This document shows, piece by piece, positions 6,003 through 20,802 of a stretch of DNA of 64,000 nt; the first letter of the stretch is position 1, and each line of letters begins with the position of its first letter. The stretch covers positions 1,787 to 65,786 of the forward strand of contig JAZNNQ010000002.1 in the NCBI GenBank assembly GCA_045580305.1. The letters run 5' to 3'. Source of the DNA: Eubacteriales bacterium. Its GTDB lineage: Bacteria > Bacillota > Clostridia > Oscillospirales > JAAYXM01. The notes beneath the pieces are model-generated. The model searched no databases. It saw nothing but the letters and a program-made list of their open reading frames with translations, and was not told the DNA's origin. Both the position numbers and the translations under genes were made by a program.

Positions 6003-6016
6003 AAGGGGGATATAAT

Positions 6017-6229: not shown

Positions 6230-6274
6230 CGAGCGGGTGGCATCTGCAAAAAACGAAAAGAAGCATAAAAACAG

Positions 6275-6310
6275 AAAATCCTCCGAAAACCCGGGGGATT
6301 TTATGTTTAT
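6275..6310 (+). terminator. probable rho-independent terminator closing the WYL-dynamin operon
   Basis: aaaatcctcc-gaaaaccc-gggggatttt stem-loop followed by T-rich sequence. Confidence 0.5.
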
Positions 6311-6336
6311 ACGGACACCTGTATGTCTGACTTGGG

Positions 6337-6345
6337 TGCTATAAT
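6337..6345 (+). promoter_or_regulatory. extended -10 element (TGcTATAAT)
   Basis: tgctataat read directly, about 27 nt upstream of the next ATG. The -35 is weak. Confidence 0.35.
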
Positions 6346-6371
6346 ATGTATGTAAAAGGGAGGTGAAGCGA

Positions 6372-6707
6372 ATGCTGAAATACGAAATCGCAAAAAGCAT
6401 ATACGAAGAAATCAAGGACAAAGTGGCTCATGACACGAGGGAAGGAGTAGAGGGCTTTTATAAGGATTTTTTAGTCAGCGCTTGTGAGTATGCAAAAAAT
6501 CGCATCGACTGGTCCTTTATGAATGGGGAAGAGAAACTGGAGGACGATGCGAGCAGATCAGTAAAGCATGACGCCTTTATGTCAAGACTTAAAGCGGTTT
6601 GCAGAGCGTTACAAATTGACGGAATTGAAGAACTTATGCCGGACAGAAAAACAAAAGGTGACTTTGCCTGTTACATAGCAATGTTCCTGGCATTGGAACA
6701 GCGTTAA
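6372..6707 (+). CDS. hypothetical helical protein
   Basis: ATG at 6372 lies 9 nt after GGGAGG. The track ORF begins at GTG 6363. No recognisable motif. Confidence 0.5.
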   Translation: MLKYEIAKSIYEEIKDKVAHDTREGVEGFYKDFLVSACEYAKNRIDWSFMNGEEKLEDDASRSVKHDAFMSRLKAVCRALQIDGIEELMPDRKTKGDFACYIAMFLALEQR

Positions 6708-6719
6708 GAAAGGAAAAAT

Positions 6720-7316
6720 ATGCCCAAAAACTGGAAGTATATCAAAAAACTGTTGGAGAAGGAGTTTCTCTGCGAAAAACTTAAGGGTCACATAACCTAT
6801 GACCTGACCGATTACAGACCTGCGCCCTGGTATCAGCAGCATTTCATTATGAAATACGATGATGAGGTTCTGCTTTGTGCATCGCAGCCCGACCGCAAGT
6901 GGGACAAGCGCCATCCATATCAGCATACCTATTGGAAGCAGCGGGATGTAATCGCCGAAAAGCTCCGCGAAAAATATGACCTGTCGGAGGAGCAGCTTGC
7001 GGATGTTGTTGAAGATACAATCGAAGAGGTGGACAGAATAAATGCCCATTACGACGGGGTGTTTGGCGTCAAGGACATTGTTGATCTTATCGGCGAGTAT
7101 CTTCATTCGGATATTGAAGCAAGTCTCGGATATCGGCAGGACTACTTCATTAACGCCCTCGCCGTACTTGACAGACGCTGCGGCAAGCGCAGGCTCGAGA
7201 AGCTTGCAAAAACGGACTGTGCGGGATTTCCCGAGTGGTTAAGGCGGATATGCAGGATACGCTTTGAAGCGGAAGGTGTAAGCTACAACAAATATTTTGA
7301 TATTGCAAGAATTTAA
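6720..7316 (+). CDS. hypothetical protein
   Basis: 198 aa, 12-nt gap from the previous gene. No motif I can assign. Confidence 0.5.
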   Translation: MPKNWKYIKKLLEKEFLCEKLKGHITYDLTDYRPAPWYQQHFIMKYDDEVLLCASQPDRKWDKRHPYQHTYWKQRDVIAEKLREKYDLSEEQLADVVEDTIEEVDRINAHYDGVFGVKDIVDLIGEYLHSDIEASLGYRQDYFINALAVLDRRCGKRRLEKLAKTDCAGFPEWLRRICRIRFEAEGVSYNKYFDIARI

Positions 7317-8015: not shown

Positions 8016-11000
8016 ATGGCATATGATATTTTTATATCCTATAAGGAAAGCGACGGCGCGCAATATGCAGAAAAGTTGAAAAAAGGATTGACAGGCAAAG
8101 GGTATAAATCTGTTTATTTTAACAAAACTGATAAGGACGAAGAAGGAAGTTTTATTACGAGACTTGAAAACGCGATCAAAACTTGTAAAGTTTTTATCTT
8201 TGTGTTGAGCGAAAACGCTAAACAATCTATATTAAATAAAACTGCAGAGAAGGGATCAAAAGAGTTTGATTATGTTTGTTGGGAACTTAGCAGGGCGCGT
8301 GAGTATAGTAAGCATGTGCTGATTTTAAACACAGGCTGTTCTTTTGATCCGTACACCGATAAATATAAATATGATGATATGAAGGATATCGAAATATATA
8401 CAGGAAGAGACTGCAAATCATCTTTGCTTGAAGCGCAGACATTTGAAATGGATAAGATACTTGATGAGCAAGGGGATTTGCTGAAAAGTGCGGGCGTTGA
8501 CATTTCTTTGCGAATGACACTTCGCAGGGTAATTTATGGAGTTTTATCTCTTAAATACAAAGCAAAGAATCCAGCTGGTAATTATGTTGATAAGGAATGT
8601 ATATTCAATAAACAGGCGTTGGAGGCATTGTGTGAATACATAACAAAAGATAACAGTATTACTACAGAAATAGAAAACTGTGCAACAGCGGAAAAATTAA
8701 CTGAATATATGAATAATACCAATCATGAAATGCTACAGGGATTTTGTGAACACTTTGAAATGGAGCCGGGCGGAAAAGAGCAAAAAGCAATTAATATCAA
8801 AATTAAAGACATTGCTATGTGTAAGTTGTATGAAATGGATTGTTGGGAGGTACTCGAGTATTTATATAATTCATATCTTATGATGAATTTTCACGAAGAC
8901 TATGCTTCTATAAGAAAGTTTTATTTAAACAAAACAATAAGTGATTACATTCTTGCGCTTGCTTGGAACAGATATTTTATTAAAAATAAAGATAAAAGAC
9001 GGGAACTTGTTTACAAAATTATTCCCGAACTTATAAGAACCCACAATCATGCGCAGAGATATTTGTTTGCTTTGATAGAAAAGGGAAGATTTGAAAGCGG
9101 GGATGAATGGCTTTTTTGCGATATTGGCGAAGAACACTCGAGCCAGATAAAAATTTTGTTTGGTGAATACTATCGGGATGTTTTTAATACCGATATGGCC
9201 AGATCAACATTTACAGAACGGCTTTTTATGTGGTTTAATCGTAATAAAGATAGTTTTGTTGATTTCTGTTTACAATTAATAAAAAAGTATAAATGCAGTG
9301 ATGCGGAAATATGGAATTTTTTGATTGTAAAATGTGATACGCTGGCAAATAAAAACAGTCTGGAGATTTTAAAAGGATATTTTTCAGAGTATGTAAAACA
9401 AAAAAACTATAAAGTTATCTTTAGAATGATTGAACAAGGGTTAAATAAATTTGTTTTTTTTAATGGTAACCAAGAAAAAGACCAAAAGTTATTTGACTTG
9501 TTATATGGGGCAACAACGAATAGAGAAGTTGTTGAAAAATATGGTCACGGATTAGCGAAAGCATTTTATACATTTTGGAAAAATGATCAGCATACAGAAG
9601 AAATCAAACAAATTACATATGAAAAACACCTCGATAAGATTGTTTCATTTAAAAATCTGTACAATATAGTTGAAGGAATTACCCTTGAAAACCCCGGTAT
9701 TCCCAAGAAAAAGTTTGAAGAAATTCTTCGAGAAACCGTAAACGAGTCGGACGATAAAATTTTAGAGGACAAACAATTTTTGTATGTATTAAATAACATA
9801 TGGGTTACAGACCAAAATGCAGATCTTTACAACAGGGCCGTGAGTAGATTGCTTGATGTATGTACATACTTAAACAGATATTATGGATTTACGGTACTTC
9901 TGTTTGTAAGATATGGAAGAAAAAGCTTTAATGAAGCAAACAGAAAAAGATTATTTGAATGCATAAAAGATTTTGCAGATAAATATGGAGCTGATGTAAA
10001 ACTTGAAGATAAACATTACGATAAAATGTTTAAAATTCTTGAGAATCATTATTTTGACGATATAAGAACAGATTTCAAAATGAAGGTGTTCGACAATGAA
10101 GGAGTAGCACCGGAAACTAAATTGAATATCTTTAACCTTTGGTACGATGTCGGGTTAAAAGAACGACTTAAAGAGAAAATAAAAGAAAATACCGACGAAA
10201 ACAACGAGACACAAAAGGCTTTTAAAATATTGTTTAAAGCCAAAAATAAGAGATGGAAAAATTTACAGGGCTGGAAGGCTGTCCATCTGTATCCTCTCAT
10301 TGAAGAACTTCTTGATTTTGAGAATTTTGTTGAGCTGAAGCCAGATATTCAGAAAAATTTAATACACAATGTAAAAACAAAGAAAGAGTTTTATCCGAAA
10401 ATCAAAGCGCTGTTAGATTCGTTTAAAGTGAATGAGTATGCATGGAATAGCTTAAGCGCTTCCGTAAAAATTGCATTTGTTATGCATATCAATAAAATCA
10501 TTGAAAAGTTTGAAGAAATAGATTTCATTAACTGCTTTGCGGAAAGTGTTATCGAGGATGTAGCATCCATGCGTAAGCGGCGCGGCGAAGTTGAAACGGA
10601 ATATGGAATCAGAGAAGAAACATTAATGTATCATATGATTTTGTTGTATCGAAAAAAACCATGGAAAACAGCAAGATTGTGTGCTGCGGCACAAGTAAAA
10701 TGGTATGGTCAACTTAAATATGAAGATGAAAAGGATGACTACAACAAGAAGAATATGCTCTTTGAACGCCGCGAGTTGTTTAAAACGGCAGTGTCAAATC
10801 CTTGCATCAAGGACTTGACCTGTTATTTAGCGAGAGCGAACTATTCTGTTGTGCGTCAAAATTCATCTGAAATAGCTAACGAGCCGGATGTTTTGAAAGA
10901 TTTTACAACGCTCTTCAGAAACATAATCGGAGGAAGGATTCCGCTGTGGTTTGGCGCGGAAGTGGCAGCGCCGATAAAAACCAAAATGCAGTGGATAGAA

Positions 11001-11591
11001 AATATTGATTTTGAAAGTGTTGTTAATGACTTCAAAAAACGCGATAGCGATCAAGGAAAGTCGTTGGAGGATCAAATACTTGATGCAGCCCAAAAAGGTA
11101 GAGACAATTTTGAAGAAAAGGCTGTTGATTTCGAGGAAGAAGCCGAGAAAATTATAGTATGGAAAAATTCAGAGTGTGATGAAAAGATATATGTTCTAAC
11201 ACGAAAAAGGCTTTTTGCAAGATATTTTGACAACAGCATATGGTATGAAGGGCTGAAGTTTAATGCCTTTCTGTTTATACCACAGATGTGCGAAGAGGTG
11301 TCTTTTGTTTCAACAAGAGATGTATTTGATGTTCGCGTGGAAATAGAGACGGTTAGAAAAGCAATAGAAGAAAAATTCAAATACGCTCTCGTTGAATTTG
11401 ATCCCGCAAAACCCAAATTTGACCGGTTTGTTAAAGGTTGTAGAATTGATAAAACTGTCCAAGAACCAATTAATCAGTTCTATAACGCATATTTGAATTA
11501 TTTAAAACTGGGAGCAATAAAACCTGAAATTGCTGAAGCATTTTCAGACTATGTTAGGCATATGAAACGCACAATTGAAAATATGAAATAG
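8016..11591 (+). CDS. TIR-domain protein with ~1050-aa helical C-terminal region of unknown function
   Basis: 1191 aa. N-terminus MAYDIFISYKESDG..VFIFVLS..DYVCWELSRA is a TIR signature that includes the conserved Glu. I found no Walker A motif. RBS AAGGAG. Confidence 0.75.
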   Translation: MAYDIFISYKESDGAQYAEKLKKGLTGKGYKSVYFNKTDKDEEGSFITRLENAIKTCKVFIFVLSENAKQSILNKTAEKGSKEFDYVCWELSRAREYSKHVLILNTGCSFDPYTDKYKYDDMKDIEIYTGRDCKSSLLEAQTFEMDKILDEQGDLLKSAGVDISLRMTLRRVIYGVLSLKYKAKNPAGNYVDKECIFNKQALEALCEYITKDNSITTEIENCATAEKLTEYMNNTNHEMLQGFCEHFEMEPGGKEQKAINIKIKDIAMCKLYEMDCWEVLEYLYNSYLMMNFHEDYASIRKFYLNKTISDYILALAWNRYFIKNKDKRRELVYKIIPELIRTHNHAQRYLFALIEKGRFESGDEWLFCDIGEEHSSQIKILFGEYYRDVFNTDMARSTFTERLFMWFNRNKDSFVDFCLQLIKKYKCSDAEIWNFLIVKCDTLANKNSLEILKGYFSEYVKQKNYKVIFRMIEQGLNKFVFFNGNQEKDQKLFDLLYGATTNREVVEKYGHGLAKAFYTFWKNDQHTEEIKQITYEKHLDKIVSFKNLYNIVEGITLENPGIPKKKFEEILRETVNESDDKILEDKQFLYVLNNIWVTDQNADLYNRAVSRLLDVCTYLNRYYGFTVLLFVRYGRKSFNEANRKRLFECIKDFADKYGADVKLEDKHYDKMFKILENHYFDDIRTDFKMKVFDNEGVAPETKLNIFNLWYDVGLKERLKEKIKENTDENNETQKAFKILFKAKNKRWKNLQGWKAVHLYPLIEELLDFENFVELKPDIQKNLIHNVKTKKEFYPKIKALLDSFKVNEYAWNSLSASVKIAFVMHINKIIEKFEEIDFINCFAESVIEDVASMRKRRGEVETEYGIREETLMYHMILLYRKKPWKTARLCAAAQVKWYGQLKYEDEKDDYNKKNMLFERRELFKTAVSNPCIKDLTCYLARANYSVVRQNSSEIANEPDVLKDFTTLFRNIIGGRIPLWFGAEVAAPIKTKMQWIENIDFESVVNDFKKRDSDQGKSLEDQILDAAQKGRDNFEEKAVDFEEEAEKIIVWKNSECDEKIYVLTRKRLFARYFDNSIWYEGLKFNAFLFIPQMCEEVSFVSTRDVFDVRVEIETVRKAIEEKFKYALVEFDPAKPKFDRFVKGCRIDKTVQEPINQFYNAYLNYLKLGAIKPEIAEAFSDYVRHMKRTIENMK

Positions 11592-11665
11592 TTTTGTCAT
11601 CTAAATTGTGCACTAATTCTATAATGAACTCAATATATGATCGTATATATTGAGTGGAGGGTACT

Positions 11666-12577
11666 ATGTCAAAATATGCAGTTAGTGATGAAGGTATAAA
11701 AGCTCTTAAAATAACAGCATCTAATGTTTTAAATGCCGTTGAACGGATATTGAATGCTACAAACTCTATAGAATCTGTTGCTGACGAGCATGTTGAAACT
11801 TTAGGACCACACTATGCTTCGTTAGTCGCTGCAATCACAGAGATACGCGAAGCGCAAAGACAAGCAGTTCAACCTGCATATGACATATCCGAAACATTGA
11901 ATGATATTGCCGATGCCTACCAAGATATAATAGATGATGATAAAATTCTTGCAGGCAACAGCGGAACATCTGCAGCAGGTGGTTTGCAGGGCGGAGGAAG
12001 CGACGGCAGTAACAAAGGTGGCAAAGTTGCGTCGTTTTTTGGGAAGATATTTGGCAGCACCGGCGCTTCAGGAAGCCGGTTTGGAGAGTTTAATGTGGAC
12101 TCAAACGGGTTTGTAAAGGGTAATGGATATGACTGTTTTATAAATGACTGGAATAGTTACGGGAAAGTGGAATTTGAAACAGACACGAAAAGTTATTCCG
12201 GGAAAAATGTTACTGAAACGATTGACCCCGGATTGATAGCGGGATTTCGGGTAAGAGAATATGACATCAAGAACCCGGGAACATTTTGGAGCCAACATCA
12301 AACGGGAGGCACTGCGGAGTCGTTTAAAGAAGTGGCTTCGCATATCCCGGAGGTAAAGAGTGAACTGGCTAAAGGCCGCTCTTTGGTTGATTTGGAGAAC
12401 GATCCGGTATTGGGCCCGTGTGCTTCAGTTTATTTTGATCCTGAGAATATGGTGAAAGTAATAAAGTGCGAAGGTTACTATGAATTCCAAGGCAATGGGC
12501 GCCATAGGATTCTTGCGGCAAGAGCCGCGGGGTATGATATTCCGGTGAAGATTGTCGGCAGCCGCAAAAGAAAATAA
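11666..12577 (+). CDS. helical N-domain / Gly-rich linker / ParB-Srx-like C-domain protein (polymorphic-toxin-like architecture)
   Basis: ATG 11666 follows GGAGGG. About 95 aa of helix, then the linker GNSGTSAAGGLQGGGSDGSNKGG, then C-terminal YYEFQGNGRHRILAARAAGYDIPVKIV (ParB/sulfiredoxin-type GxxRxxA motif). Confidence 0.45.
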   Translation: MSKYAVSDEGIKALKITASNVLNAVERILNATNSIESVADEHVETLGPHYASLVAAITEIREAQRQAVQPAYDISETLNDIADAYQDIIDDDKILAGNSGTSAAGGLQGGGSDGSNKGGKVASFFGKIFGSTGASGSRFGEFNVDSNGFVKGNGYDCFINDWNSYGKVEFETDTKSYSGKNVTETIDPGLIAGFRVREYDIKNPGTFWSQHQTGGTAESFKEVASHIPEVKSELAKGRSLVDLENDPVLGPCASVYFDPENMVKVIKCEGYYEFQGNGRHRILAARAAGYDIPVKIVGSRKRK

Positions 12578-12596
12578 ATCGCAAAAAGAAGACACA

Positions 12597-12816
12597 ATGG
12601 ACGAAACAAATAACGATGATATAAATTCTTGAGGTTATTCGCGATATAGAAAAATTTGATTTTGTTATATTTGGTGAGATTCTTATATCATATTGCATTG
12701 CCTACGAAAAATCGCAATTCAACGGTTCTTGTTTCAAAGAGTACATCTATCCACCGACAGCAACGGAGTTTCTCATTGAGGAGAGACAAATGAAGGAAAA
12801 GAGCTTTTGTCCCTGA
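12597..12816 (+). pseudogene. possible frameshifted small ORF (candidate cognate/immunity gene remnant)
   Basis: ATG 12597 gives 11 codons and then TGA. The +1 frame stays open for 61 more codons (EVIRDIEKFDFVIFGEILISYCIAYEKSQFNG..) with no start codon of its own. Confidence 0.2.
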
Positions 12817-12860
12817 CCAGACATAAAGTTTGTCTAATTATTCAAAAAAGGAGAAAATAT

Positions 12861-15800
12861 ATGAATACAAAAGAAGTAACTCCCTATATCTTCATATCAT
12901 ATGCACATGAAGATGCAAATATTGCAAAACGCATCACCGAGTATCTGCAAAATGAAGGTTTTGAAGTTTGGATAGACTATAATAATATTCGCGCAGGAGA
13001 AAAATTCAACGGTGAAATTGCCAAAGCAATTATTGATTCATCGCTACTTATAGCAGTAGTTTCAAATGTATATATATCAAAAGATAAAGATTATTGCACA
13101 AAAGAAATCACATACGCACATAACAGGCAAAAAAATTATATGCCCGTTTACATTGAAAAAGTAAAAGTTCCTATTGGGTGCGAACTGGATTTTGTTTTTC
13201 ATAATGCTTCTCAAGTAGGATTTAATATGAGTCTGGAAAACGACGATGATTTTAATGCGCTTTGTCATTCGATTACAAATTCTGAGTATATGGATTATCT
13301 AAAAGAGTATATGCAAGGCGACACGCCATTGCCTATGCCATATATTAAACCGGACCGATTCGATAAAATTAAGAAATATTATCAGAAGATTGCAAATGGC
13401 AATTATTATTTACCGTCCATCGAAACAGAACTGTTTCCTCCATTTAAAATTGATTCAAAAATAGAGCGGTCTGGTAACAACAATGGACTTTTGTTAGAAA
13501 AAATCATTCAGGATTATAAGACGAATTTTCTGATAATTGGCGATGGAGGTTCCGGAAAAACTGTAGCATTAAGAAGTATATTTAGAAACTTTATAGATAA
13601 TGAAATACCAGCATTGTACATTCCGCTAAATAAAATTCAATTTTCAGAGAAAGTAACCATTCAATCTTATTTAGAAGATGAGATGCAATTAACATGGCAT
13701 TCTCTAAAGATATACGGGAAGCGCGATTCAAGCAACAGTCCATTACGATTATTATTCGACGGATTAAATGAGATTCCGGGGGATCGAAGAGCAGTATTAA
13801 ATCAAATCAAAGAAATTATGCGGTGGGATAATGTTCAGATTATAATATCTTCAAGAAGTGATTTTAGCAATAATTTAACACGAGACATCATGTTTAAAAC
13901 CATTTATTTACAACCCCTTGAAGAAAACACAGTAAAAGCATTTCTTGAAAAAAAGAGTATGCCTGCTAACCTTAATAAGAAAATGACTTCGCTGTTACGT
14001 AATCCATTGATGCTCATGTTATACATAAATACTGATATGAGCATGTATGAGCCTTTGTCGAAATATTCAAATTACTACAAAATAAATATTTCCAGTTCCC
14101 CGTCTTCCGAAGAACAAATCATGTGGAATTTCTTACAAAGCCAGCTATATCGTGTTGATGAGAGCTTTTCAAGTCAGTTTGTTTGTGATGCATTTGTTAT
14201 AATTGAATTTCTTTTGCCATTATTGGCGAACCATATGATAATAAACGGTAAAAGCAACATCGACGAAAACGAACTTGATGATTTCTTAGATTCCTTGACA
14301 TCACGAGATGACTATAAATATTACAATAATAGGTTGAGGAAGATTGAGCGAACATTAGATATTGAGGAATACAAATACAAGGGGAACAATTTGAATAGGG
14401 TTTTATTTAACAAATTATCCTTAATGGTTGAGGCTGAAACGGGCGAGGAAGATGACTCGAAAAGGTATGAGTTCTTTCATCAAAGTTTCAGAGATTTTTT
14501 TGCAGCTATGTTTGTTGCAAAAAAGCTTGAAATGATAGCAAATGAAAAAACAACCAACTTTGAAGAAATATCAAAAATCCCGTATGAGATTGAGATTATC
14601 AAATATGTTGCGGAAATTTCTATGGAAAAACAAGCAAAGCCGGTTTGGACAGCAGAAGGATTAACTTATCCCGGAAAAAACGAACCTCTCTCTGCTTCCT
14701 CTTTTTCTGATGCTGAAAAATCGTTAAATGCGTATAGAGGTCTATTTGATGAAAGTGCTCAAAACATTGTTTGTAATGTTTACAAGATAATGTCGATAGG
14801 TAGAGACAGACATTTGTCAAATTGTGATTTTTCATCATTAGATTTAAGAAAATGCAATCTTAAGGGTGGGTACTATTCTGATTGGTATTGTGATAATGAG
14901 TATCCGTCATCTTTTGAAAATTCGTACATAGACCTGGATTGTTTTATATCACAAGGACATCAAGCTACAATAAAATCAATCTGTGAAGGAAATGGAGGAG
15001 TATTTACTGCAGATACTGAAGGTACAGTTAAGCATTGGCGGTTCGATGAAAATATACCTATATTTACTGTAACAACACCGGAAGGAGCTATTATAAGTAT
15101 AGATTATTCTGAAAAATCAAAGCAATTGGCTATTCTAAAACAACATGCCGTATATTTATATGATTTAGAAACAGATGTAGTGTCTATGATTGCATCTGCA
15201 AAAAGTACATATCGCTACATTAGGTTTAATACAGACGATCAAATAGAAGTAACATATGACACATCACCTTTAACATGGACGAACTTGTCCGGAGTAATAA
15301 CGACTGATTATTTGTCGTTAGATATTCCTTGCGGGTGCTCTGCCATTGATTCAAAACATACGCAGATACTGAGAAGTTATCTCTACGGCACTGTTCATAG
15401 GTATGACCCCTGTGATAATTCAATTATCGGTGAACTAAATATGTTAGAAAAAGCAGAGGGAAATGGAATTACCGACATCAAGTTTAGTAATGACGATTCA
15501 AGATTTCTGGTTGGCTTCGGGAACAATGTCTTTGAGTTTGATAGTCATTCATTGGAACAGCTACACAAGCTGGAATTCAAATCTTTAGTTAATTCTGTTA
15601 TGTACACAGCGGACGATAAAATTGTGGTTGCAACAGGTGTAAATATAGTTGTGTTAAATAAAGATTTTTCTTATTACAAAGAGTTTGCAGGTGAGTCTCT
15701 TCCTAATATAATTAAAAAATTGTTTAAGGATGATGGAAAACTTTATTTTCTCGACACGACTGGAACAATCAAGCTTATTTCAGACAAGATAACCGTAAGT

Positions 15801-16205
15801 AAAACCAGAAAACCTTGGTTTAAACCCCGCACAATAGCCTTTGGACATGATGGACTTGACAGACACTCTACCAAGATGTTTGCGATAACAAGTGCACCTA
15901 AATTAATTGGTAAAGAAAAGAAAGTATGCATTGGATATGATTATGAGAAGAACGCTATTTTCGATTTAGTCAAGGATTATGAGATTTTCAATGTTTTCCA
16001 TGGCAGGGATAACGATGAATATGAAATCCATATACTTGCAAATAAGATAGTTGCTATAAATAAAAAAACCAGCGAACGAGTACTGTTTGTTAATTACAAG
16101 GGAATTACCATTCATGGGTGTAACTTTAAAAACATTTTAGGTAGCATAACCGAAGATGAAGGCATACATTTACTTGTGCAGAATGGAGGAATTGTTAATG
16201 AATAA
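12861..16205 (+). CDS. TIR-NACHT(STAND NTPase)-WD40-like repeat protein
   Basis: ATG 12861 follows AAGGAG. TIR signature YIFISYAHED..DYCTKEITYA. Walker A IIGDGGSGKTVAL and Walker B LRLLFDGLNEIP. C-terminal WD-like units such as GHQATIKSI..DTEGTVKHWRF. Confidence 0.8.
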   Translation: MNTKEVTPYIFISYAHEDANIAKRITEYLQNEGFEVWIDYNNIRAGEKFNGEIAKAIIDSSLLIAVVSNVYISKDKDYCTKEITYAHNRQKNYMPVYIEKVKVPIGCELDFVFHNASQVGFNMSLENDDDFNALCHSITNSEYMDYLKEYMQGDTPLPMPYIKPDRFDKIKKYYQKIANGNYYLPSIETELFPPFKIDSKIERSGNNNGLLLEKIIQDYKTNFLIIGDGGSGKTVALRSIFRNFIDNEIPALYIPLNKIQFSEKVTIQSYLEDEMQLTWHSLKIYGKRDSSNSPLRLLFDGLNEIPGDRRAVLNQIKEIMRWDNVQIIISSRSDFSNNLTRDIMFKTIYLQPLEENTVKAFLEKKSMPANLNKKMTSLLRNPLMLMLYINTDMSMYEPLSKYSNYYKINISSSPSSEEQIMWNFLQSQLYRVDESFSSQFVCDAFVIIEFLLPLLANHMIINGKSNIDENELDDFLDSLTSRDDYKYYNNRLRKIERTLDIEEYKYKGNNLNRVLFNKLSLMVEAETGEEDDSKRYEFFHQSFRDFFAAMFVAKKLEMIANEKTTNFEEISKIPYEIEIIKYVAEISMEKQAKPVWTAEGLTYPGKNEPLSASSFSDAEKSLNAYRGLFDESAQNIVCNVYKIMSIGRDRHLSNCDFSSLDLRKCNLKGGYYSDWYCDNEYPSSFENSYIDLDCFISQGHQATIKSICEGNGGVFTADTEGTVKHWRFDENIPIFTVTTPEGAIISIDYSEKSKQLAILKQHAVYLYDLETDVVSMIASAKSTYRYIRFNTDDQIEVTYDTSPLTWTNLSGVITTDYLSLDIPCGCSAIDSKHTQILRSYLYGTVHRYDPCDNSIIGELNMLEKAEGNGITDIKFSNDDSRFLVGFGNNVFEFDSHSLEQLHKLEFKSLVNSVMYTADDKIVVATGVNIVVLNKDFSYYKEFAGESLPNIIKKLFKDDGKLYFLDTTGTIKLISDKITVSKTRKPWFKPRTIAFGHDGLDRHSTKMFAITSAPKLIGKEKKVCIGYDYEKNAIFDLVKDYEIFNVFHGRDNDEYEIHILANKIVAINKKTSERVLFVNYKGITIHGCNFKNILGSITEDEGIHLLVQNGGIVNE

Positions 16206-18045
16206 TAAGATAGAAGATTTAATAATAGAATTTTACGATTTTTCAATTTGTAAATGTAAAGCAAGTGTTAAGGTTTGCGAATTAGATATTTTTATACCGG
16301 ACTTTGTTGTAATGAATGCTTCAAATACAGTGGAAGTATATATGCCCGCTGCCTATAAAACTACATGGCCGTTTAAAGAAATAACATGGCACGAGATTCG
16401 GCATGCAGTTCTTGACGAATTCAAACAAAAATATCAATCCTTTGGAAGTTTTAATGTTGAGTTTGAGGCTATTGATAACAATGTATATCTTGCCAAGGTG
16501 GATTATGATTTCTTAGATATACACTTGGATGGGTGCAAAGTCAAAGTAAAAAACAAGCGCCCGTTTATAAATATGCCTGAAAATTTTAAAAATATATGGC
16601 CTTATCATTCCATCGCATGGTTGGATGTTCGCAATGCAATGGTAGAACATTTTAAGAAGCAAAGGAAAACTCAAAAAGATGTATTAAATTATATACCAAT
16701 GGTAAGTGTTCACGATGTATCTAACGACGGAACGGCGTTGTTTGATATAGAAATACCGGAATTGCAATATGAGCTTACAGATGGGGCCATATACTATATA
16801 AGTAATGATAATATCAATATTAATTTGCCGAGCGACTTTCCTGTTAACCCGGAAAATGGATTGACTCGAAAAGGTGTATTAAAAACTATACGCGAAGAAT
16901 ATTTAAAGCAAATTAATGGTATTGATATAACACCCTATTCCAAATCCGAAACACAATGCGAACTCGAATCGAACAAAAACAAATTCGGGAGAATAATGGA
17001 TGCTGATGGTAGGCCGTTCATGTTTGTTCCAAACACAGAATTAAGACCGATCGGAAAAATTTTTGATACGAATAAATTTCAAACAGCAAAAAAACTCCTT
17101 AAAGCATTAAGTAGCAATGACATAGGCATATTCGAAATTGATACATTATCTATAATTGAGAAATTTCGATATGTTAATAGTAATATGATCATAGATTTAT
17201 TTGCCAGCGGATATATTTCTCGAGGTTGGAGGAATATTAATAAAAATAAACTTGCTGGTATCTTTGACCGATTAGCAAAACATAATCTTGTAAATATATG
17301 CAAATTTGTGCGTGTAGATGAATCTTATCGAAACAATGTTACCGGCGAAGAAATTTACCGCATATTTTCGTTAGCTGAGACTGGAAATCGACTATTAAGT
17401 GAACTTGGTAGGGTTCACCACTATAATCCTTTTGATGTTTACCAAAACGGTAATTTTGTAAAAGCAATTCTAGCTGCAAATCAGTGGCTCGTTTATTGGC
17501 TAAGTTCTTATCCGGAGGAAATTAAGGACAAATATGACACCGCTAAAGTTATCCATGCTTTAGGTGCAGAGAAGAGTGGAGCAAAGATTTACTCTATGAT
17601 TACTTGCAATGATATAACTTTAATTGGAGAACCGTTAAGAAGAACATACGAATTTGATGAGCCTCAAAATGCGATTGAAATACAAGAGAAACTTAAACGC
17701 CTGTTCTACCTCATAGACTTTAAAGGTGATATATATACAAATAGCGGGTATAAGCCGGTTGAATACAATCTTGGAAATGATTCAATAATTTGCTACATAT
17801 GCGAAGATGACGACCATATTAAGGAAATGTGGCATATTGTAAAGTCCATAATAATGGATAATCCAAGCAAAAAAGTCTGGTTTACAACGGATGCGCGCTT
17901 ATTCAACTACTCTTGTGAAAACGAACGCTTTTTTATGTTTGACAAAGATGATCAAATGAACAGAGTGGATCTGTTTAATGAAATGAAACTTGGTAAAGAA
18001 CGCGCATATGATTTCATAGATCAGACAAGCACCGAATCGTTTTAA
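16198..18045 (+). CDS. protein with three tandem SpoVG-like repeats and a replication-relaxation-like winged-helix C-terminal half
   Basis: ATG 16198 lies 7 nt after GGAGGA and overlaps the upstream stop by 8 nt. There are three modules of about 80 aa, each ending ..MP..W/P..I.W..VR.A.L.EF/YK.Q. The C-terminal half contains IIEKFRYVNSNMIIDLF..IFDRLAKHNLV..IYRIFSLAETG. Confidence 0.45.
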   Translation: MNNKIEDLIIEFYDFSICKCKASVKVCELDIFIPDFVVMNASNTVEVYMPAAYKTTWPFKEITWHEIRHAVLDEFKQKYQSFGSFNVEFEAIDNNVYLAKVDYDFLDIHLDGCKVKVKNKRPFINMPENFKNIWPYHSIAWLDVRNAMVEHFKKQRKTQKDVLNYIPMVSVHDVSNDGTALFDIEIPELQYELTDGAIYYISNDNININLPSDFPVNPENGLTRKGVLKTIREEYLKQINGIDITPYSKSETQCELESNKNKFGRIMDADGRPFMFVPNTELRPIGKIFDTNKFQTAKKLLKALSSNDIGIFEIDTLSIIEKFRYVNSNMIIDLFASGYISRGWRNINKNKLAGIFDRLAKHNLVNICKFVRVDESYRNNVTGEEIYRIFSLAETGNRLLSELGRVHHYNPFDVYQNGNFVKAILAANQWLVYWLSSYPEEIKDKYDTAKVIHALGAEKSGAKIYSMITCNDITLIGEPLRRTYEFDEPQNAIEIQEKLKRLFYLIDFKGDIYTNSGYKPVEYNLGNDSIICYICEDDDHIKEMWHIVKSIIMDNPSKKVWFTTDARLFNYSCENERFFMFDKDDQMNRVDLFNEMKLGKERAYDFIDQTSTESF

Positions 18046-18282
18046 TATACACAAGCGACTATTGGTTAGGGATTTTAAAGAAAACGAAAATGCTGACAGG
18101 AGTTGAATGAATTGAGATGCACGATAAATGTAATAAAATTGGCAGATTGCTGATGGCATCAATAATAACTGCGAAGAAAGAACGAAAAATCAGTGATCTT
18201 TAAATCATGTGCTGATTTTACAATGTATCCAATCTAAGATGAATTTGGGCAACTTTAAATTTGACCTGAAAGAAGGATTATC

Positions 18283-20718
18283 ATGCATGAAGAGGAAAGA
18301 ATAGATGAAAGACACAGATATTTTGCTTTTGTAGCTTATACTCGATATAAAAGAAAAGATTTCAAATATGCAGAAAAAATATACAAAGAGCTTCAAAAGC
18401 ATAGATTACCCGCAAAGATTGCAAAGAAATATCCTGAAAAGCATAAAAGAACGAAGCCTTTATTTTTAGATCATTTTGATATGCCACCCGAAAATTACAA
18501 TAGGATTGATCCGCTTGCGTTAAAAGAGTCAAAGAAATTAATAGTAGTATGCTCAACCAGACTGGTCGAACATGAAACTACTGCCGTAATTAAGGAAATT
18601 CAAGACTTCTTGGATTCGGGACACGACTGGGATGATATTATTCCGGTTTTAGTGGAAAAACCGAATAAAAAAGAAGACCGTGACGCGCGTGTGCAAAGGT
18701 GCTTTCCTAAAATATTAAGAGAGTTAAATGCGAAAAATAACGGAGAATATAATAAGATAGCAGTTGATTTCTTCAAACCTTCCGGAAAAAAGGATGTGGA
18801 GAGTGTCATATACAAGATGATTTCATACATTCAAGGAATCAACTTGACGGAACTCGAAAGATTTGAGCGTAAGAGAAAAAGAATGCGAATGATTTTTGGC
18901 TCACTTTTATGTGCCGTTCTTATCCTGCTTGGTGTGCTTTTAATGGGGTGGACAAGCGAAAAGATCAATATAAAAAACGGAATACAAGAGGCAATCAATG
19001 TGTCCGAAAATAACACATATAATGCCATAACAAGTCTATTTGATATTGAAAAGCGCCAAAATCGTTTTTTATTGAATAACGAAAGAGTTTATAGTGCTCT
19101 TGAAGCGGCTGCCGATTACAAAGCGGGACAATGTTTGAGAAAAAAGCAATTTTATTTTAACAATATTGAAAGCATCGAGGTTGTTAATAAAGTGGGCAAC
19201 CTTTTTGGCGTCAAGACAACAGATCGATATTATGTTATAGATGTAAATGATTGTGAAATAAAGTATGAAATATCTGCCAATAACTTTTGGTATGAGAAAG
19301 AAAATAAAAAATATCAGATGGTTCTGAATAACGACGCGACAGGAGATTATGAACTTCAAAAAGTATGGTGTGACAATGATAAGGTATACCTTTCCATCGC
19401 ACCCCCAAATGATTACAATGCTGAAAAACTTGAAGTAGTTGTAGATATAGCCGACAATAGTTCATACCGCGCAGACATTATATGGGGCGATCAATCTTAT
19501 GCCAAAAAAGATGATGGGATTCAAATGTTGGGAACGGTTGTGTCAGTTCCTGATAAAGATGGAAATTTCACATCGCTGGTGCATGAATCTAATGTTGGCA
19601 CTTATGCGGTAAGGGCTGATTTGAATGTAATATGGTCTATGGATAAAACGGGTTGTGTGTATATTTGGTCAATGAGGAATGGATATTCTTTGGCCGATAA
19701 AATGTATGATAAGAACAATAGATATGTGTGGGCAACATCTACCGATGGATTATTGTTCAGAATCGATTTGGAAAGCGGCGAATTAACGAAGATAATAAAA
19801 AATAAAGAAATTTCTTTTATTGGACAAGATGATACGCAGATTTTTGTGGCAATAAAGAACGAAAATCTGGAATATCCGGCTATTTGCATGTGTGACAAAA
19901 AAACCGGTGTTGTAAAGCAAATAAACCGTCTCCCTGAAATAAATGAAAAAAATAAACATCTTATGACACCGCAATCAAATTCCCTGGTTGGAAGGGAATG
20001 TGTAATTGTAGCCCGAAGCCTTATCGATCACATTAATGGAAATCATCTGTCGGAGGCCTTGTTTGACAAGAACAATGCAATTAAATTTATGGATGTTCTT
20101 GAGGAAAATACTCTCGCTGATATTGAGGTATATTTCGATATGCAAAGCTCAGATGCATTTAATTCGATGAAAACCACTATCATATCAAACAGACAAACAG
20201 TGTTAATGCCAAGAATACACACCTTCAACGGTATGCTCACAGAGGAGCTATATAAAATCAATGATGGTGAATGGCGACCGATATATACAGATAGCGGTAT
20301 TTTAACTGGTATTGATATTCCGAAGGATTTAGATTTTGATAAAGAACATATTTTGCATATAAAAGCGGTTGATGGAAGTAAAAATGAAACGACCAAGTCG
20401 TTTAGATTTACTATGGAAAACCGGGAAGTTCAGTGGCGGATTGAAAGCGGCGGAAGACAACTTGCTTCCAAAGAAGTTACTGAGATAGAAACTCAGGATA
20501 TTGTAATTGAGTGTAAAGAAAATGCGGCCAATTCCGTAAAAGAAATTACATATGCTTTTGATAACGATCCGGAAGTATTTTGTGTGCAAGGCGAACGGGC
20601 AGAGATCAAAATACCTAAAAAATATCTCGATGGAAATGAACATAAGATATTGATATATTTTGTTTCTGAAAAGGTTACAACGAAGTATTATGTATATTCA
20701 TTTAAGTATGTAAAATGA
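18283..20718 (+). CDS. TIR-TM-extracytoplasmic beta-propeller/Ig-like protein
   Basis: 811 aa. TIR-like YFAFVAYTR..KPLFLD..KKLIVVCS..VIKEIQDF..IIPVLVEKP. KRKRMR plus TM IFGSLLCAVLILLGVLLMGW at aa ~203-223. WD-like strands and a beta-rich C-terminus. Confidence 0.65.
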   Translation: MHEEERIDERHRYFAFVAYTRYKRKDFKYAEKIYKELQKHRLPAKIAKKYPEKHKRTKPLFLDHFDMPPENYNRIDPLALKESKKLIVVCSTRLVEHETTAVIKEIQDFLDSGHDWDDIIPVLVEKPNKKEDRDARVQRCFPKILRELNAKNNGEYNKIAVDFFKPSGKKDVESVIYKMISYIQGINLTELERFERKRKRMRMIFGSLLCAVLILLGVLLMGWTSEKINIKNGIQEAINVSENNTYNAITSLFDIEKRQNRFLLNNERVYSALEAAADYKAGQCLRKKQFYFNNIESIEVVNKVGNLFGVKTTDRYYVIDVNDCEIKYEISANNFWYEKENKKYQMVLNNDATGDYELQKVWCDNDKVYLSIAPPNDYNAEKLEVVVDIADNSSYRADIIWGDQSYAKKDDGIQMLGTVVSVPDKDGNFTSLVHESNVGTYAVRADLNVIWSMDKTGCVYIWSMRNGYSLADKMYDKNNRYVWATSTDGLLFRIDLESGELTKIIKNKEISFIGQDDTQIFVAIKNENLEYPAICMCDKKTGVVKQINRLPEINEKNKHLMTPQSNSLVGRECVIVARSLIDHINGNHLSEALFDKNNAIKFMDVLEENTLADIEVYFDMQSSDAFNSMKTTIISNRQTVLMPRIHTFNGMLTEELYKINDGEWRPIYTDSGILTGIDIPKDLDFDKEHILHIKAVDGSKNETTKSFRFTMENREVQWRIESGGRQLASKEVTEIETQDIVIECKENAANSVKEITYAFDNDPEVFCVQGERAEIKIPKKYLDGNEHKILIYFVSEKVTTKYYVYSFKYVK

Positions 20719-20802
20719 TGAGCATATTAACCTAAAGGTGCGCTTGCGGGGCGTATGACTTGATTCTGCCGCAAGGAACACAAATTTTTTGGAGTGAAAG
20801 CA

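What the first reader, a model, noticed from the sequence alone, without database searches (positions are those of the whole stretch)
12861..18045. TIR-NACHT-WD40-like sensor translationally coupled to a nucleic-acid-binding-like partner: a possible two-gene NLR-type module
The 1114-aa protein combines a TIR with a STAND NTPase (GDGGSGKT; LLFDGLNE) and WD-like repeats (GHQATIKSI..DTEGTVKHWRF). Bacterial NACHT and Avs-type STAND proteins are established single-gene phage sensors. Here the stop codon is overlapped by 8 nt by the ATG of a 615-aa gene whose RBS (GGAGGA) lies inside the NLR coding sequence, implying obligatory co-expression. That partner has three SpoVG-like repeats and a replication-relaxation-like winged-helix half. 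Both are folds associated with DNA or RNA binding, not with known NLR accessory proteins. An NLR-like TIR protein with a dedicated nucleic-acid-binding partner is, to my knowledge, not a described system.
Basis: partly seen in the sequence, partly recalled or inferred. Interest (0 to 1): 0.75.

Follow-up and report, generated by a model that had tools for sequence, protein, structure and literature searches.

The report
Two-gene bacterial NLR immune module
A bacterial relative of animal and plant NLR immune receptors is always encoded with one dedicated, previously undescribed partner protein, which suggests some bacterial NLRs work as two-subunit receptors rather than single proteins.

Summary
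A 1114-aa TIR / NACHT-like NTPase / WD40 gene (12861-16205) overlaps by 8 nt the start of a 615-aa gene (16198-18045), whose GGAGGA ribosome-binding site lies inside the upstream gene.

The partner has three SpoVG-fold repeats, a winged helix and a restriction-endonuclease-fold domain distantly related to Replic_Relax.

The pairing is not accidental. In all 39 loci where it could be checked (window included), from Clostridia, Synergistota and Bacteroides, an NLR homologue ends at the partner's start. These are the only two genes shared by 19 diverse loci. None was found in viral contigs.

The NLR's N-terminal effector is swapped (TIR, double TIR, protein kinase, unknown) while the partner stays. 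So the partner belongs to the NACHT-WD40 body, not to the TIR. Its SpoVG array is the fastest-changing part of the unit; its winged helix is the most conserved.

Caveats: the SpoVG DNA-contact residues are lost, the array is acidic, and no canonical nuclease motif could be mapped. Nucleic-acid binding is therefore unproven.

Most likely this is a two-subunit NLR-type defence module with the partner as co-sensor or guarded bait. No description of such a partner was found. There are no experimental data.

The parts
12848..12853 (+). Shine-Dalgarno (AAGGAG) of the NLR gene, 7 nt before the ATG
   Evidence: Read directly from the sequence.
12861..16205 (+). NLR gene, 1114 aa: TIR / NACHT-like STAND NTPase / WD40 propeller
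   Evidence: ORF. Pfam domains. Family profile against the PDB. Homologous over its full body to the upstream gene of every partner locus.
12888..13172 (+). TIR domain (aa 10-104), with putative catalytic Glu82 in the C-x-x-E motif
   Evidence: TIR_2 E=2.2e-21. PDB profile hits to the NADase TIRs Cat1, AbTIR, SARM1 and Roq1. E82 is conserved in all TIR-bearing family members. Its catalytic role is inferred from knowledge of TIR NADases.
13530..13952 (+). NACHT-like NTPase core (aa 224-364), with Walker A GDGGSGKT (aa 227-234, nt 13539-13562) and Walker B LLFDGLNE (aa 297-304, nt 13749-13772)
   Evidence: Pfam NACHT 24.3 bits against a 26.7 cutoff. Homologues reach the cutoff or pass it. G-x-G-G-x-G-K-T and D-G-x-N-E are invariant in 17 family members.
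14811..14960 (+). Most conserved NLR segment (aa 651-700, CDFSxLDLRxCxL...), between the NTPase module and the first WD40 blade; a candidate docking or regulatory element
   Evidence: Mean pairwise identity of 0.53 against 0.25-0.43 elsewhere, with no indels. Its function is unknown.
14943..16160 (+). WD40-type beta-propeller region (about aa 695-1100)
   Evidence: Pfam beta-propeller hits. Family profile against WD40 proteins, E=3.5e-23, and against the Apaf-1 propeller.
16186..16191 (+). Shine-Dalgarno (GGAGGA) of the partner gene, inside the NLR coding sequence; it encodes part of the invariant NLR tail N1108-G1109-G1110
   Evidence: A GGAGG or GGGGG is present at the same place in all 8 junctions shown.
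16198..16205 (+). 8-nt overlap ATGAATAA (partner start codon and NLR stop codon)
   Evidence: Junctions in homologues overlap by 1-44 nt or lie 2 nt apart in 15 of 16 intact loci; the -31 value for L030 is a start-codon calling artefact.
16198..18045 (+). Partner gene, 615 aa: three SpoVG-fold repeats, a linker, a winged helix and a PD-(D/E)XK-fold (Replic_Relax-like) domain
   Evidence: ORF. Family of 79 representatives at 50% identity. AlphaFold models. Fold searches.
16219..16434 (+). SpoVG-fold repeat 1 (aa 8-79)
   Evidence: Beta4-alpha unit in the model. Related to repeat 2 (E=1.4e-6) and to P0014 aa 93-166, which hits Pfam SpoVG. Foldseek match to 2ia9, prob 1.00.
16450..16674 (+). SpoVG-fold repeat 2 (aa 85-159)
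16699..16914 (+). SpoVG-fold repeat 3 (aa 168-239), the most divergent
   Evidence: Same beta4-alpha topology in the model. Sequence similarity to repeats 1 and 2 is not significant.
17074..17448 (+). Winged-helix region (aa 293-417), basic (pI 9.4) and the best-conserved part of the two-gene unit
   Evidence: Model. PadR and NadR/MarR matches. Conservation. Charge.
17449..18012 (+). PD-(D/E)XK (restriction-endonuclease) fold domain (aa 418-605), with invariant Q429, R481, E536, H540 and D565 and the motifs NQWLVYWL, GEPxRR, YICEDDEH and WFTTD
   Evidence: Foldseek matches to Cdn1, VC1899, Can2, Card1, McrC, Bax1, R.BspD6I, an XisH-like protein and a CdiA-CT nuclease. Invariant columns in 52 sequences. 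hhalign to Replic_Relax-like P0084. No canonical D...(D/E)xK could be mapped.

Best explanation
The two genes form one translationally coupled, two-subunit NLR-type (STAND) conflict module, most likely an abortive-infection phage or mobile-element defence.

Subunit 1 has a swappable N-terminal effector (here a TIR predicted to cleave NAD+), a NACHT-like NTPase switch and a WD40 propeller.

Subunit 2 is tied to the NACHT-WD40 body, not to the effector. I therefore place it on the input side, as a co-sensor or adaptor, or as a guarded bait. Its fast-changing array of SpoVG-fold repeats would meet the invader's molecule. Its conserved winged-helix plus Replic_Relax-type core would contact the NLR (the propeller and/or the conserved 651-700 segment), and possibly DNA.

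A change in the partner's state would release autoinhibition. The NTPase would then oligomerise, the TIR domains would cluster, NAD+ would be destroyed and the infected cell would stop growing.

Shown here: gene structure, folds, strict co-occurrence, effector swapping and the divergence pattern. Inferred: the defence role, NADase activity, physical contact between the subunits and the input-side placement.
For: Coupling: an 8-nt overlap with the SD inside gene 1. 15 of 16 intact homologous junctions overlap by 1-44 nt or lie 2 nt apart, and GGAGG (GGGGG in two) is present in all 8 junction sequences shown.

Co-occurrence: 12 of 12 loci found through partner homologues, 25 of 25 informative genome and metagenome loci, and the closest NLR relative, L041. 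Hosts include Oscillospiraceae and other Clostridia, Fretibacterium and Bacteroides. Only the NLR and partner clusters are shared by 19 diverse loci. A CHAT-NACHT outgroup has no partner.

Effector swaps with the partner retained: kinase in L006 (35% identity over the NLR body), an unknown domain in L008 against TIR in its 54%-identical relative L016, and TIR-TIR in L010.

NLR competence: Walker A and the D-G-x-N-E Walker B are invariant, and TIR Glu82 is conserved.

Divergence: the SpoVG array is the most diverged and indel-rich region in all 13 pairwise comparisons, with whole repeats gained or lost. The wHTH is the most conserved region.

Context: the window holds a run of TIR genes in a low-GC stretch. 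L041 sits among TIR genes, a TraG-like gene and DarT.

Precedent: bacterial NACHT and Avs proteins are antiphage sensors, and some need a second protein for sensing, such as DnaJ for bNACHT25 and EF-Tu for Avs7.
Against: There are no experimental data of any kind.

The partner has no hit in PADLOC or any other defence library.

The WD40 propeller could be a complete sensor on its own, as in other STANDs.

The partner's nuclease-fold domain has an invariant E/H/D/R/Q constellation, and its best structural matches are ligand-activated effector nucleases (Card1, Can2, Cdn1). Both points fit an output-side role equally well.

The SpoVG repeats lack the basic doublet required for DNA binding, and the array is acidic. 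So what the array binds is unknown.

The reciprocal search for NLR-clade members lacking a partner was shallow, with only 7 hits.
Confidence: 0.45

Rival explanations
1. Output-side model. The partner is a second effector: a PD-(D/E)XK-fold nuclease with a nucleic-acid-handling SpoVG/wHTH front end. The oligomerised NLR recruits or activates it, so the module has two killing activities (NAD+ depletion plus nucleic-acid cleavage). The analogy is the separately encoded pro-nuclease Avs1a of AVAST type 1, or the Card1/Can2 nucleases.
For: The best structural matches of the C-terminal half are Cdn1, VC1899, Can2 and Card1 (wHTH plus REase nuclease effectors), McrC, Bax1, R.BspD6I and a CdiA-CT DNase toxin. 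Q429, R481, E536, H540 and D565 are invariant, and acidic and basic residues are nearly invariant, in 52 sequences. P0007 carries two tandem cores, as expected for a fold that works as a dimer. A STAND protein with an operon-encoded nuclease exists in AVAST type 1.
Against: The NLR already carries its own effector, and that effector is swapped (TIR, kinase, unknown) without any change of partner family. This is hard to reconcile with effector-specific activation of the partner. No canonical D...(D/E)xK triad could be placed on the predicted strands. The conserved 'catalytic' part would be expected to be accompanied by a conserved substrate-binding part, not a rapidly changing one.
Confidence: 0.25
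2. Regulator model. The partner is a negative regulator of the NLR. Either it is an antitoxin-like inhibitor made in fixed ratio by translational coupling and removed on infection, or it is a wHTH transcription factor that autoregulates the operon.
For: The wHTH is basic and is the most conserved part. Replic_Relax proteins were described as predicted transcriptional regulators with HTH fusions. Translational coupling suits stoichiometric inhibitor-toxin pairs. The kinase variant in L006 carries its own PP2C phosphatase upstream, showing that these modules do include built-in antidotes.
Against: A 600-830-aa protein with 2-4 variable repeats and an invariant E/H/D pocket is far more than a repressor needs. 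Regulators of defence islands are usually small and upstream or divergent, whereas this gene is always downstream. NLRs are normally autoinhibited in cis. An inhibitor that is removed on infection is in practice the guard or bait version of the best explanation.
Confidence: 0.15
3. The module is not immune at all. It would be a signalling or housekeeping NTPase system, for example one responding to nucleic-acid or stress states, that happens to use TIR and kinase outputs.
For: No defence assay exists. The partner's two building blocks come from housekeeping families: SpoVG, and a chromosomal protein of about 310 aa next to pseudouridine synthase, SSB and ribosomal genes. No known defence system was detected by PADLOC beyond TIR-domain similarity.
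Against: The distribution is patchy across three phyla, in different flanks each time, with pseudogenised copies. Neighbours include transposase, integrase-fragment, TraG and DarT genes, and the window copy lies in a low-GC run of TIR genes. All of this is typical of mobile defence cargo. Effector swapping on a constant sensor body is the hallmark of immune STANDs.
Confidence: 0.08
4. Accidental adjacency. The partner would be a plasmid or ICE replication-relaxation gene that merely sits beside a TIR-NACHT gene in this genome.
For: The C-terminal half is distantly related to Replic_Relax, a family named after plasmid functions.
Against: Every informative related locus has the pair, with conserved overlapping or abutting junctions and no other shared gene. 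NLR and partner identities fall off in the same order.
Confidence: 0.02

Closest known systems
Bacterial NACHT / NLR-related antiphage proteins (bNACHT; Kibby et al., preprint 10.1101/2022.07.19.500537)
   Same: Tripartite effector / NACHT-type NTPase / repeat-sensor architecture. TIR is one of the known N-terminal effectors. Effector modularity is shared.
   Different: [quoted passage not shown] Here a partner gene is strictly conserved and translationally coupled. The window protein scores just below the Pfam NACHT cutoff, and its Walker B is DGxNE rather than DGxDE.
AVAST/Avs type 1 (STAND Avs1b with a fused protease, plus the separately encoded pro-nuclease Avs1a; PMC12799240)
   Same: A STAND NTPase that works with a protein encoded by an adjacent gene; that partner is a nuclease-fold protein.
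   Different: The partner there is an MBL-fold nuclease encoded upstream and activated by a trypsin-like protease domain. Here there is no protease, the partner is downstream, it has a PD-(D/E)XK fold with SpoVG repeats, and it is retained across different effector domains.
STAND sensors that need a second protein for sensing: bNACHT25 with DnaJ (PMC12169576) and Avs7 with EF-Tu (10.64898/2026.01.04.697583)
   Same: The concept is shared: a second protein assists ligand recognition by a bacterial NLR-like protein.
   Different: Those cofactors are unlinked host housekeeping proteins. Here the second protein is dedicated, operon-encoded and co-inherited with the receptor.
Apaf-1 and Apaf-1-like WD40 STANDs
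   Same: An NTPase followed by a WD40 propeller as the C-terminal sensor. The Apaf-1 propeller is among the PDB hits. WD40 sensors are noted among bacterial STANDs.
   Different: Apaf-1 is an AP-ATPase with a CARD effector and binds cytochrome c. There is no dedicated co-encoded partner of this kind.
Card1 / Can2 / Cdn1 / VC1899 (ligand-activated wHTH plus PD-(D/E)XK nucleases)
   Same: These are the best structural matches for the partner's C-terminal half. They share the order: sensor domain, then winged helix, then REase-fold domain.
   Different: The matches are weak globally (TM about 0.25, E about 1e-3 to 1e-4). There is no CARF domain, SpoVG repeats take its place, and the catalytic motif is not canonical.
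SpoVG (PF04026; 2ia9)
   Same: The fold of the three N-terminal repeats matches (prob 1.00, TM-target 0.57). Some family members carry genuine SpoVG domains (E down to 5.8e-42).
   Different: SpoVG is a small single-domain protein. Here 2-4 tandem copies are fused to another module. The K/R doublet essential for SpoVG DNA binding is lost and replaced by the signature MPxx[MYF]xxxWx[YF]. The window protein itself does not hit the Pfam model.
Replic_Relax (PF13814; HTH plus PD-(D/E)XK fold, Steczkiewicz et al. 2012, PMC3424549)
   Same: The architecture is the same: a winged helix plus a PD-(D/E)XK-fold domain. There is transitive homology through P0084 (hhalign 99.1%, E=1e-18, with shared motifs NQ[WF]L, ExxRR and ICEDxxH), and P0084's family carries PF13814 hits.
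   Different: Neither the window protein nor any of the 52 family members scanned hits PF13814. The stand-alone relatives are about 310 aa and sit in chromosomal housekeeping neighbourhoods, not beside NLRs.
Plant paired NLRs, integrated decoys and guard-guardee systems (from general knowledge; not tested here)
   Same: The idea is shared: an NLR monitors a dedicated bait derived from host proteins. Both halves of the partner derive from host housekeeping families.
   Different: The analogy is purely conceptual. There is no homology, and no evidence here that the partner is targeted by phage proteins.

Membership tests
NACHT-clade STAND NTPase (bNACHT / NLR-related) | Match to the NACHT module (PF05729) above the curated threshold | tested here: inconclusive
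   The window protein scores 24.3 bits against a 26.7 cutoff. The homologue in L006 scores exactly 26.7, and the L007 homologue has an unmarked precomputed NACHT hit. Other members hit nSTAND_NTPase5, nSTAND3 or NPHP3_N instead.
NACHT-clade STAND NTPase (bNACHT / NLR-related) | Walker A GxxxxGK[ST]; Walker B Asp followed by a small residue, with acidic residues two to four positions later (hhhhDGxDE) | tested here: met
   G227-x-G-G-x-G-K-T234 is invariant. D300-G301-x-N303-E304 is invariant in 17 members. The small residue after the Asp is present, and the D at +3 is replaced by N. The motif definition is from general knowledge of the NACHT family.
NACHT-clade STAND NTPase (bNACHT / NLR-related) | Tripartite architecture: N-terminal effector, central NTPase, C-terminal repeat sensor | tested here: met
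   TIR, then NTPase, then WD40. The effector position is swapped for a kinase, a double TIR or an unknown domain in relatives.
NACHT-clade STAND NTPase (bNACHT / NLR-related) | Confers phage defence | not testable with these tools
   This needs expression and phage challenge.
TIR NADase effectors | TIR domain with the conserved catalytic glutamate | tested here: met
   TIR_2 E=2.2e-21. Profile hits to Cat1, AbTIR and SARM1. E82 in C-x-x-E is conserved in all TIR-bearing members. Assigning E82 as catalytic rests on motif position, not on a structural superposition.
WD40 beta-propeller | Significant match to WD40 repeats | tested here: met
   The family profile hits WD40 proteins at E=3.5e-23 and the Apaf-1 propeller at about 1e-8. 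Pfam propeller families cover aa 695-927.
SpoVG (PF04026) | Sequence match to the SpoVG model | tested here: not met
   The window protein has no SpoVG hit even at E<=10. Seven of 52 family members do hit it.
SpoVG (PF04026) | SpoVG fold | tested here: met
   Foldseek match to 2ia9_F: prob 1.00, TM-target 0.57, 76 columns, 22% identity. There is also a transitive sequence link: repeat 1 to P0014 aa 93-166 to SpoVG.
SpoVG (PF04026) | Basic doublet after the MPS turn, required for DNA binding (K50-R51 in S. aureus; PMC3688583) | tested here: not met
   The repeats read MPAAYKTTW, MPENFKNIW and LPSDFPVNP. The doublet is kept only in members with genuine SpoVG domains, for example P0065 AMPSRKN.
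Replic_Relax (PF13814) | Sequence match to the Replic_Relax model | tested here: not met
   The window protein has no hit at E<=10, and none of the 52 family members hits at E<=0.01.
Replic_Relax (PF13814) | Homology to recognised Replic_Relax proteins, with HTH plus PD-(D/E)XK-fold architecture | tested here: met
   hhalign of the partner core against P0084: 99.1%, E=1e-18, 239 columns. P0084 hits PF13814 at 6.1e-5 (23.6 bits against 25.3), and more than 20 of its relatives have precomputed PF13814 hits. The fold searches give wHTH and REase-fold matches. The architecture definition is from PMC3424549.
PD-(D/E)XK nucleases | Canonical catalytic D...(D/E)xK on strands beta2 and beta3 | tested here: inconclusive
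   The predicted strand at 461-470 has no conserved acidic residue. The strand at 473-479 ends in E478-P-x-R-R. The other invariant residues (E536, H540, D565) follow later strands. Model coordinates could not be inspected.
CARF-family effector nucleases (Card1/Can2) | N-terminal CARF ligand-binding domain | tested here: not met
   The N-terminal region consists of SpoVG-fold repeats, and there is no CARF hit.
AVAST type 1 | [quoted passage not shown] | tested here: not met
   No protease or MBL domain is present in either protein. The family definition is from PMC12799240.
Thoeris | A ThsB TIR protein together with a ThsA-type effector gene | tested here: not met
   Only domain-level TIR similarity to ThsB and ThcB4 models, far below family cutoffs. 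There is no ThsA-like gene in the pair.

The most novel reading that the evidence does not exclude
The partner is a dedicated bait (guardee or decoy) assembled from paralogues of two host housekeeping nucleic-acid-associated proteins. One is SpoVG. The other is a chromosomal Replic_Relax-like protein encoded next to pseudouridine synthase, SSB and ribosomal genes. The NACHT-WD40 protein would guard this bait and fire when a phage factor binds or modifies it. That would be a bacterial counterpart of plant guard and integrated-decoy NLR pairs. The rapidly changing, acidic SpoVG array, which has lost its DNA-contact residues, would be the decoy surface.
Probability: 0.2. Interest if true: 0.9.

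Novelty: new variant of a known kind. Interest (0 to 1): 0.7.

Why it matters
Bacterial NLR-like proteins are currently understood as single-chain receptors that bind a phage protein directly, sometimes helped by an unlinked host protein. A clade in which the receptor is always inherited with one dedicated partner, across three phyla and across effector swaps, would change that picture. It would show that two-subunit sensing, through an adaptor, co-receptor or guarded bait, also exists in bacteria.

It would also provide a compact, genetically defined system for studying how an NLR reads a second protein.

It defines a new protein family (SpoVG-fold array plus Replic_Relax-type core, about 79 clusters at 50% identity). 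It gives two folds so far linked to gene regulation and plasmid biology a new context in conflict systems.

In practice, the pair could be added to defence-system finders as a two-gene signature.

Tried and rejected
(1) Direct Pfam, PADLOC, PHROG and NCBIfam scans of the partner found nothing credible. Only CATSPERB_2nd and HTH_55 appeared, far below their cutoffs.

(2) A sequence-profile search of the partner family against the PDB gave only chance hits to gp120.

(3) BLASTP self-comparison of the N-terminal half found no repeats. phmmer with single repeats did find the repeat 1 to repeat 2 relation.

(5) The promoter and terminator scan was uninformative, with counts below the shuffled expectation. 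Transcript boundaries remain unknown.

(6) Viral contigs hold no relative, so a phage-borne origin was rejected.

(7) The accidental-adjacency and plasmid-replication readings were rejected on the co-occurrence data.

(8) A TIR-signal-receptor role for the partner (Thoeris-like) was considered and down-weighted, because the partner is retained when TIR is replaced by a kinase or an unknown domain.

(9) The N-terminal effector of the L008 NLR could not be identified.

(10) The literature hits for SpoVG with anti-phage or TIR terms were irrelevant; they only used the spoVG ribosome-binding site.

(11) The organism of the window was not determined. The closest relatives are Oscillospiraceae and Clostridia MAGs, the cluster look-up returned no names, and the window has no tRNA.

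Full report
**Observation.**
- The upstream gene starts at ATG 12861, 7 nt after AAGGAG, and ends with TAA at 16203-16205. It encodes 1114 aa.
- The downstream gene starts at ATG 16198 and ends at 18045. It encodes 615 aa.
- The two overlap by the 8 nt ATGAATAA. A GGAGGA at 16186-16191 lies 6 nt before the second ATG, inside the first gene.
- An upstream in-frame ATG at 16156 has no ribosome-binding site. Homologues begin at the position equivalent to 16198.

**Anatomy of the NLR.**
- Pfam finds TIR_2 at aa 10-104 (E=2.2e-21), NACHT at aa 224-364 (24.3 bits, just below the 26.7 cutoff) and beta-propeller families at aa 695-927.
- A profile of 15 family members hits WD40 proteins in the PDB at E=3.5e-23. 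It also hits the Apaf-1 propeller and the NADase-type TIRs Cat1, AbTIR, SARM1 and Roq1.
- Across 17 members, Walker A (G-x-G-G-x-G-K-T, aa 227-234) and Walker B (D300-G-x-N-E304) are invariant. Glu82, in the C-x-x-E motif of the TIR, is conserved in every TIR-bearing member.
- The best-conserved stretch is aa 651-700 (CDFSxLDLRxC...), between the NTPase module and the first WD40 blade.
- The C-terminal tail N1108-G1109-G1110 is invariant. Its codons (AAT GGA GG) double as the partner's Shine-Dalgarno.

**Anatomy of the partner.**
- No library recognises it directly.
- An exhaustive HMMER search finds a small family of 79 representatives at 50% identity. The conserved core is the C-terminal half (aa ~257-605), and the N-terminal parts vary.
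- AlphaFold models are confident: pLDDT 79.9 for the full length; pLDDT 82.7 and pTM 0.86 for the C-terminal half.

*N-terminal half.*
- It consists of three beta4-alpha units (aa 8-79, 85-159, 168-239). Foldseek matches B. subtilis SpoVG (2ia9; prob 1.00, TM-target 0.57).
- Repeats 1 and 2 are significantly similar to each other and to multi-copy repeats in relatives.
- Seven of 52 family members hit Pfam SpoVG (best 5.8e-42). P0014 aa 94-167 hits SpoVG and also aligns with the window's repeat 1.

*C-terminal half.*
- It is a winged helix (PadR and NadR matches) followed by a restriction-endonuclease-fold domain. The matches are Cdn1 (6.8e-4), VC1899 (1.1e-3), Can2, Card1, McrC, Bax1, R.BspD6I, an XisH-like protein and a CdiA-CT DNase.
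- A stand-alone 305-aa distant relative, P0084, aligns with this core at hhalign probability 99.1% (E=1e-18). It shares the motifs NQ[WF]L, ExxRR and ICEDxxH.
- P0084 hits Pfam Replic_Relax (6.1e-5), and more than 20 of its 116 relatives carry PF13814.
- Replic_Relax was classified as a PD-(D/E)XK-fold family usually fused to HTH domains (PMC3424549).

*Caveats on function.*
- SpoVG needs a basic doublet after its MPS turn to bind DNA (PMC3688583). The window's repeats read MPAAYKTTW, MPENFKNIW and LPSDFPVNP.
- The family has its own signature, MPxx[MYF]xxxWx[YF]. The array is acidic (net charge -3, +2 and -7 for the three repeats). Only the wHTH is basic (pI 9.4).
- In the nuclease-fold domain, Q429, R481, E536, H540 and D565 are invariant in 52 sequences. 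I could not place a canonical D...(D/E)xK on the predicted strands.

**Is the pairing real?**
- For eight different partner clusters, the gene immediately upstream is a 1100-1390-aa NLR that overlaps or abuts the partner's start.
- Four species-representative genomes (an Oscillospiraceae MAG, a Clostridia MAG, Fretibacterium, Bacteroides) and 24 metagenome loci were added. tblastn finds an NLR homologue ending at the partner in all 25 loci with enough upstream DNA. The other three contigs are too short.
- The closest NLR relative (69% identity, L041) has an overlapping 624-aa gene downstream (not compared with the partner). A CHAT-NACHT outgroup has none.
- Of 16 intact junctions, 14 overlap by 1-44 nt and one (L010; also L012) lies 2 nt apart, while a GGAGG-type site is seen in all 8 junctions inspected. 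The -31 value for L030 comes from ATG-only start calling; tblastn shows its partner reading frame continuing upstream of that ATG.
- Clustering all ORFs of 19 diverse loci shows only two families shared by all: the NLR and the partner.
- No relative exists in 2.9 million viral contigs.
- Several copies carry frameshifts (L033-35, L037, L039). This is either decay or assembly error.

**What the partner is tied to.**
- The NLR bodies are homologous from about aa 167 to the end in every locus, but the N-terminal effector changes.
- Most have a TIR. L010 and L012 have tandem TIR-TIR. L006 has a protein kinase (35% identity over 950 aa of body, with a PP2C phosphatase gene overlapping its start).
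- L008 has an unidentified domain, although its body is 54% identical to the TIR-bearing L016.
- The partner persists through all these swaps, so it belongs to the NACHT-WD40 body rather than to TIR.

**Divergence pattern.**
- In 13 pairwise comparisons, the SpoVG array is always the most diverged and indel-rich region, with whole repeats gained or lost. In L030 against L031 the propeller is 83% identical, yet the array has 86 gap positions.
- The wHTH is the best-conserved region of the whole unit.
- The propeller is moderately conserved with almost no indels.

**Origin of the partner's parts.**
- Stand-alone relatives of the core are proteins of about 310 aa in conserved chromosomal neighbourhoods. 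S4-pseudouridine synthase genes lie immediately upstream, with SSB, an S1-domain protein, Ddl and ribosomal proteins nearby. They are not on plasmids or ICEs and not beside NLRs.
- SpoVG is likewise a housekeeping regulator.
- The partner is therefore a fusion of paralogues of two host nucleic-acid-associated families.

**Mechanism.**
- I commit to a two-subunit NLR-type defence module (confidence about 0.8 for 'obligate two-gene unit').
- Within it, I place the partner on the input side, as co-sensor, adaptor or guarded bait (about 0.45). The reasons are that it is linked to the sensor body across effector swaps, that it carries the most variable surface of the system, and that the NLR already has its own effector.
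- Activation would follow the standard STAND route: ligand-dependent release, NTP-dependent oligomerisation, TIR clustering and NAD+ cleavage. This is inferred from knowledge of bNACHT, Avs and TIR systems.
- The main rival (0.25) is that the partner is a second effector nuclease. This is suggested by the Card1/Can2-like matches, the invariant E/H/D pocket, the tandem-core variant P0007 and the AVAST type 1 precedent.
- A regulator or antitoxin role (0.15) and a non-immune role (0.08) remain possible. Accidental adjacency is excluded.

**Comparison with known systems.**
- The NLR is a member, or a near neighbour, of the bacterial NACHT clade.
- The 2026 STAND survey mentions WD40 sensors and host cofactors (EF-Tu), but no such partner.
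- bNACHT25 uses the unlinked host protein DnaJ.
- AVAST type 1 has an adjacent nuclease gene, but of a different fold and logic.
- PADLOC has no model for the partner.
- Full-text searches for SpoVG with NACHT, STAND, TIR or anti-phage terms found nothing relevant.

**Verdict.**
- This is a real, strictly conserved and apparently undescribed two-gene variant of bacterial NLR systems, with a new partner family. The function is untested.

Noticed in passing
window 8016-23226: A same-strand run of TIR-domain genes, with the 8-20 kb part at low GC (0.32-0.36 against 0.42-0.52 in the flanks). Gene A (8016-11591) has a TIR plus about 1090 aa with no hit in any library. Gene E (18283-20718) has a sub-threshold TIR, a hydrophobic helix and weak propeller-like hits. 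Gene F (20794-23226) is TIR / AAA_16-NB-ARC / TPR, FxSxx_TPR-like, at higher GC. This looks like a multi-TIR defence island.
   Followed up: partly
window 11654-12577: A 307-aa protein between two TIR genes. It has a weak EspC/WXG100-like helical N-terminus and a C-terminal 'GNGRHRILAARAAGYDIPVKIVG' that looks ParB/Srx-like by eye. It may be a small LXG-type polymorphic toxin or an accessory of gene A.
   Followed up: no
window 684-7316: Upstream of the island: a WYL+WCX HTH regulator (684-1661), two GTPase or dynamin-like genes (2155-3780 and 3799-5490; DLP_helical 5e-54), and an SF0329-family gene (6720-7316). WYL regulators and dynamin-like pairs are often defence-associated.
   Followed up: no
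L006 3617-8120: In the kinase-effector variant, a PP2C phosphatase gene overlaps the start of the kinase-NACHT-WD40 gene by 17 nt. The kinase version of the module therefore seems to carry its own antidote, making a three- or four-gene operon.
   Followed up: no
L007 8938-11424 (P0007): This 828-aa partner variant has two tandem copies of the wHTH plus nuclease-fold core and a shortened N-terminal region. This hints that the core works as a dimer.
   Followed up: no
window 16182-16205 and homologous junctions: The NLR's invariant C-terminal N-G-G is encoded by AAT GGA GG, which is the partner's Shine-Dalgarno. It is conserved even in Bacteroides-type loci (L008, L016), where the overlap is 26-32 nt. 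It is unclear whether the constraint is on the protein, on the RNA, or on both.
   Followed up: partly
L033, L034, L035, L037, L039: These copies have frameshifts in the NLR, the partner or both. This is either pseudogenisation of the module or errors in the assemblies.
   Followed up: no
L041 (closest NLR relative, 69% identity): Here the pair sits beside TIR-Sel1 and TIR-DUF6273 genes, a 942-aa TPR protein, a TraG-like T4SS coupling protein, ClpP and a DarT1-NADAR gene. That is a mobile-element and defence context similar in spirit to the window.
   Followed up: no
L044-L048 (stand-alone Replic_Relax-like relatives): A family of about 310-aa proteins (116 clusters) lies in a conserved position just downstream of S4-pseudouridine synthase genes, near SSB, an S1-domain protein and ribosomal genes in Clostridia-type contigs. 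It is an uncharacterised, apparently housekeeping, member of a family named after plasmid functions.
   Followed up: partly
BFVD entry A7KUX4: A 283-aa viral protein is the best structural match to the partner in the viral library (E=2.4e-5, TM-target 0.52, 313 columns). It may be a phage-encoded wHTH plus nuclease-fold protein.
   Followed up: no
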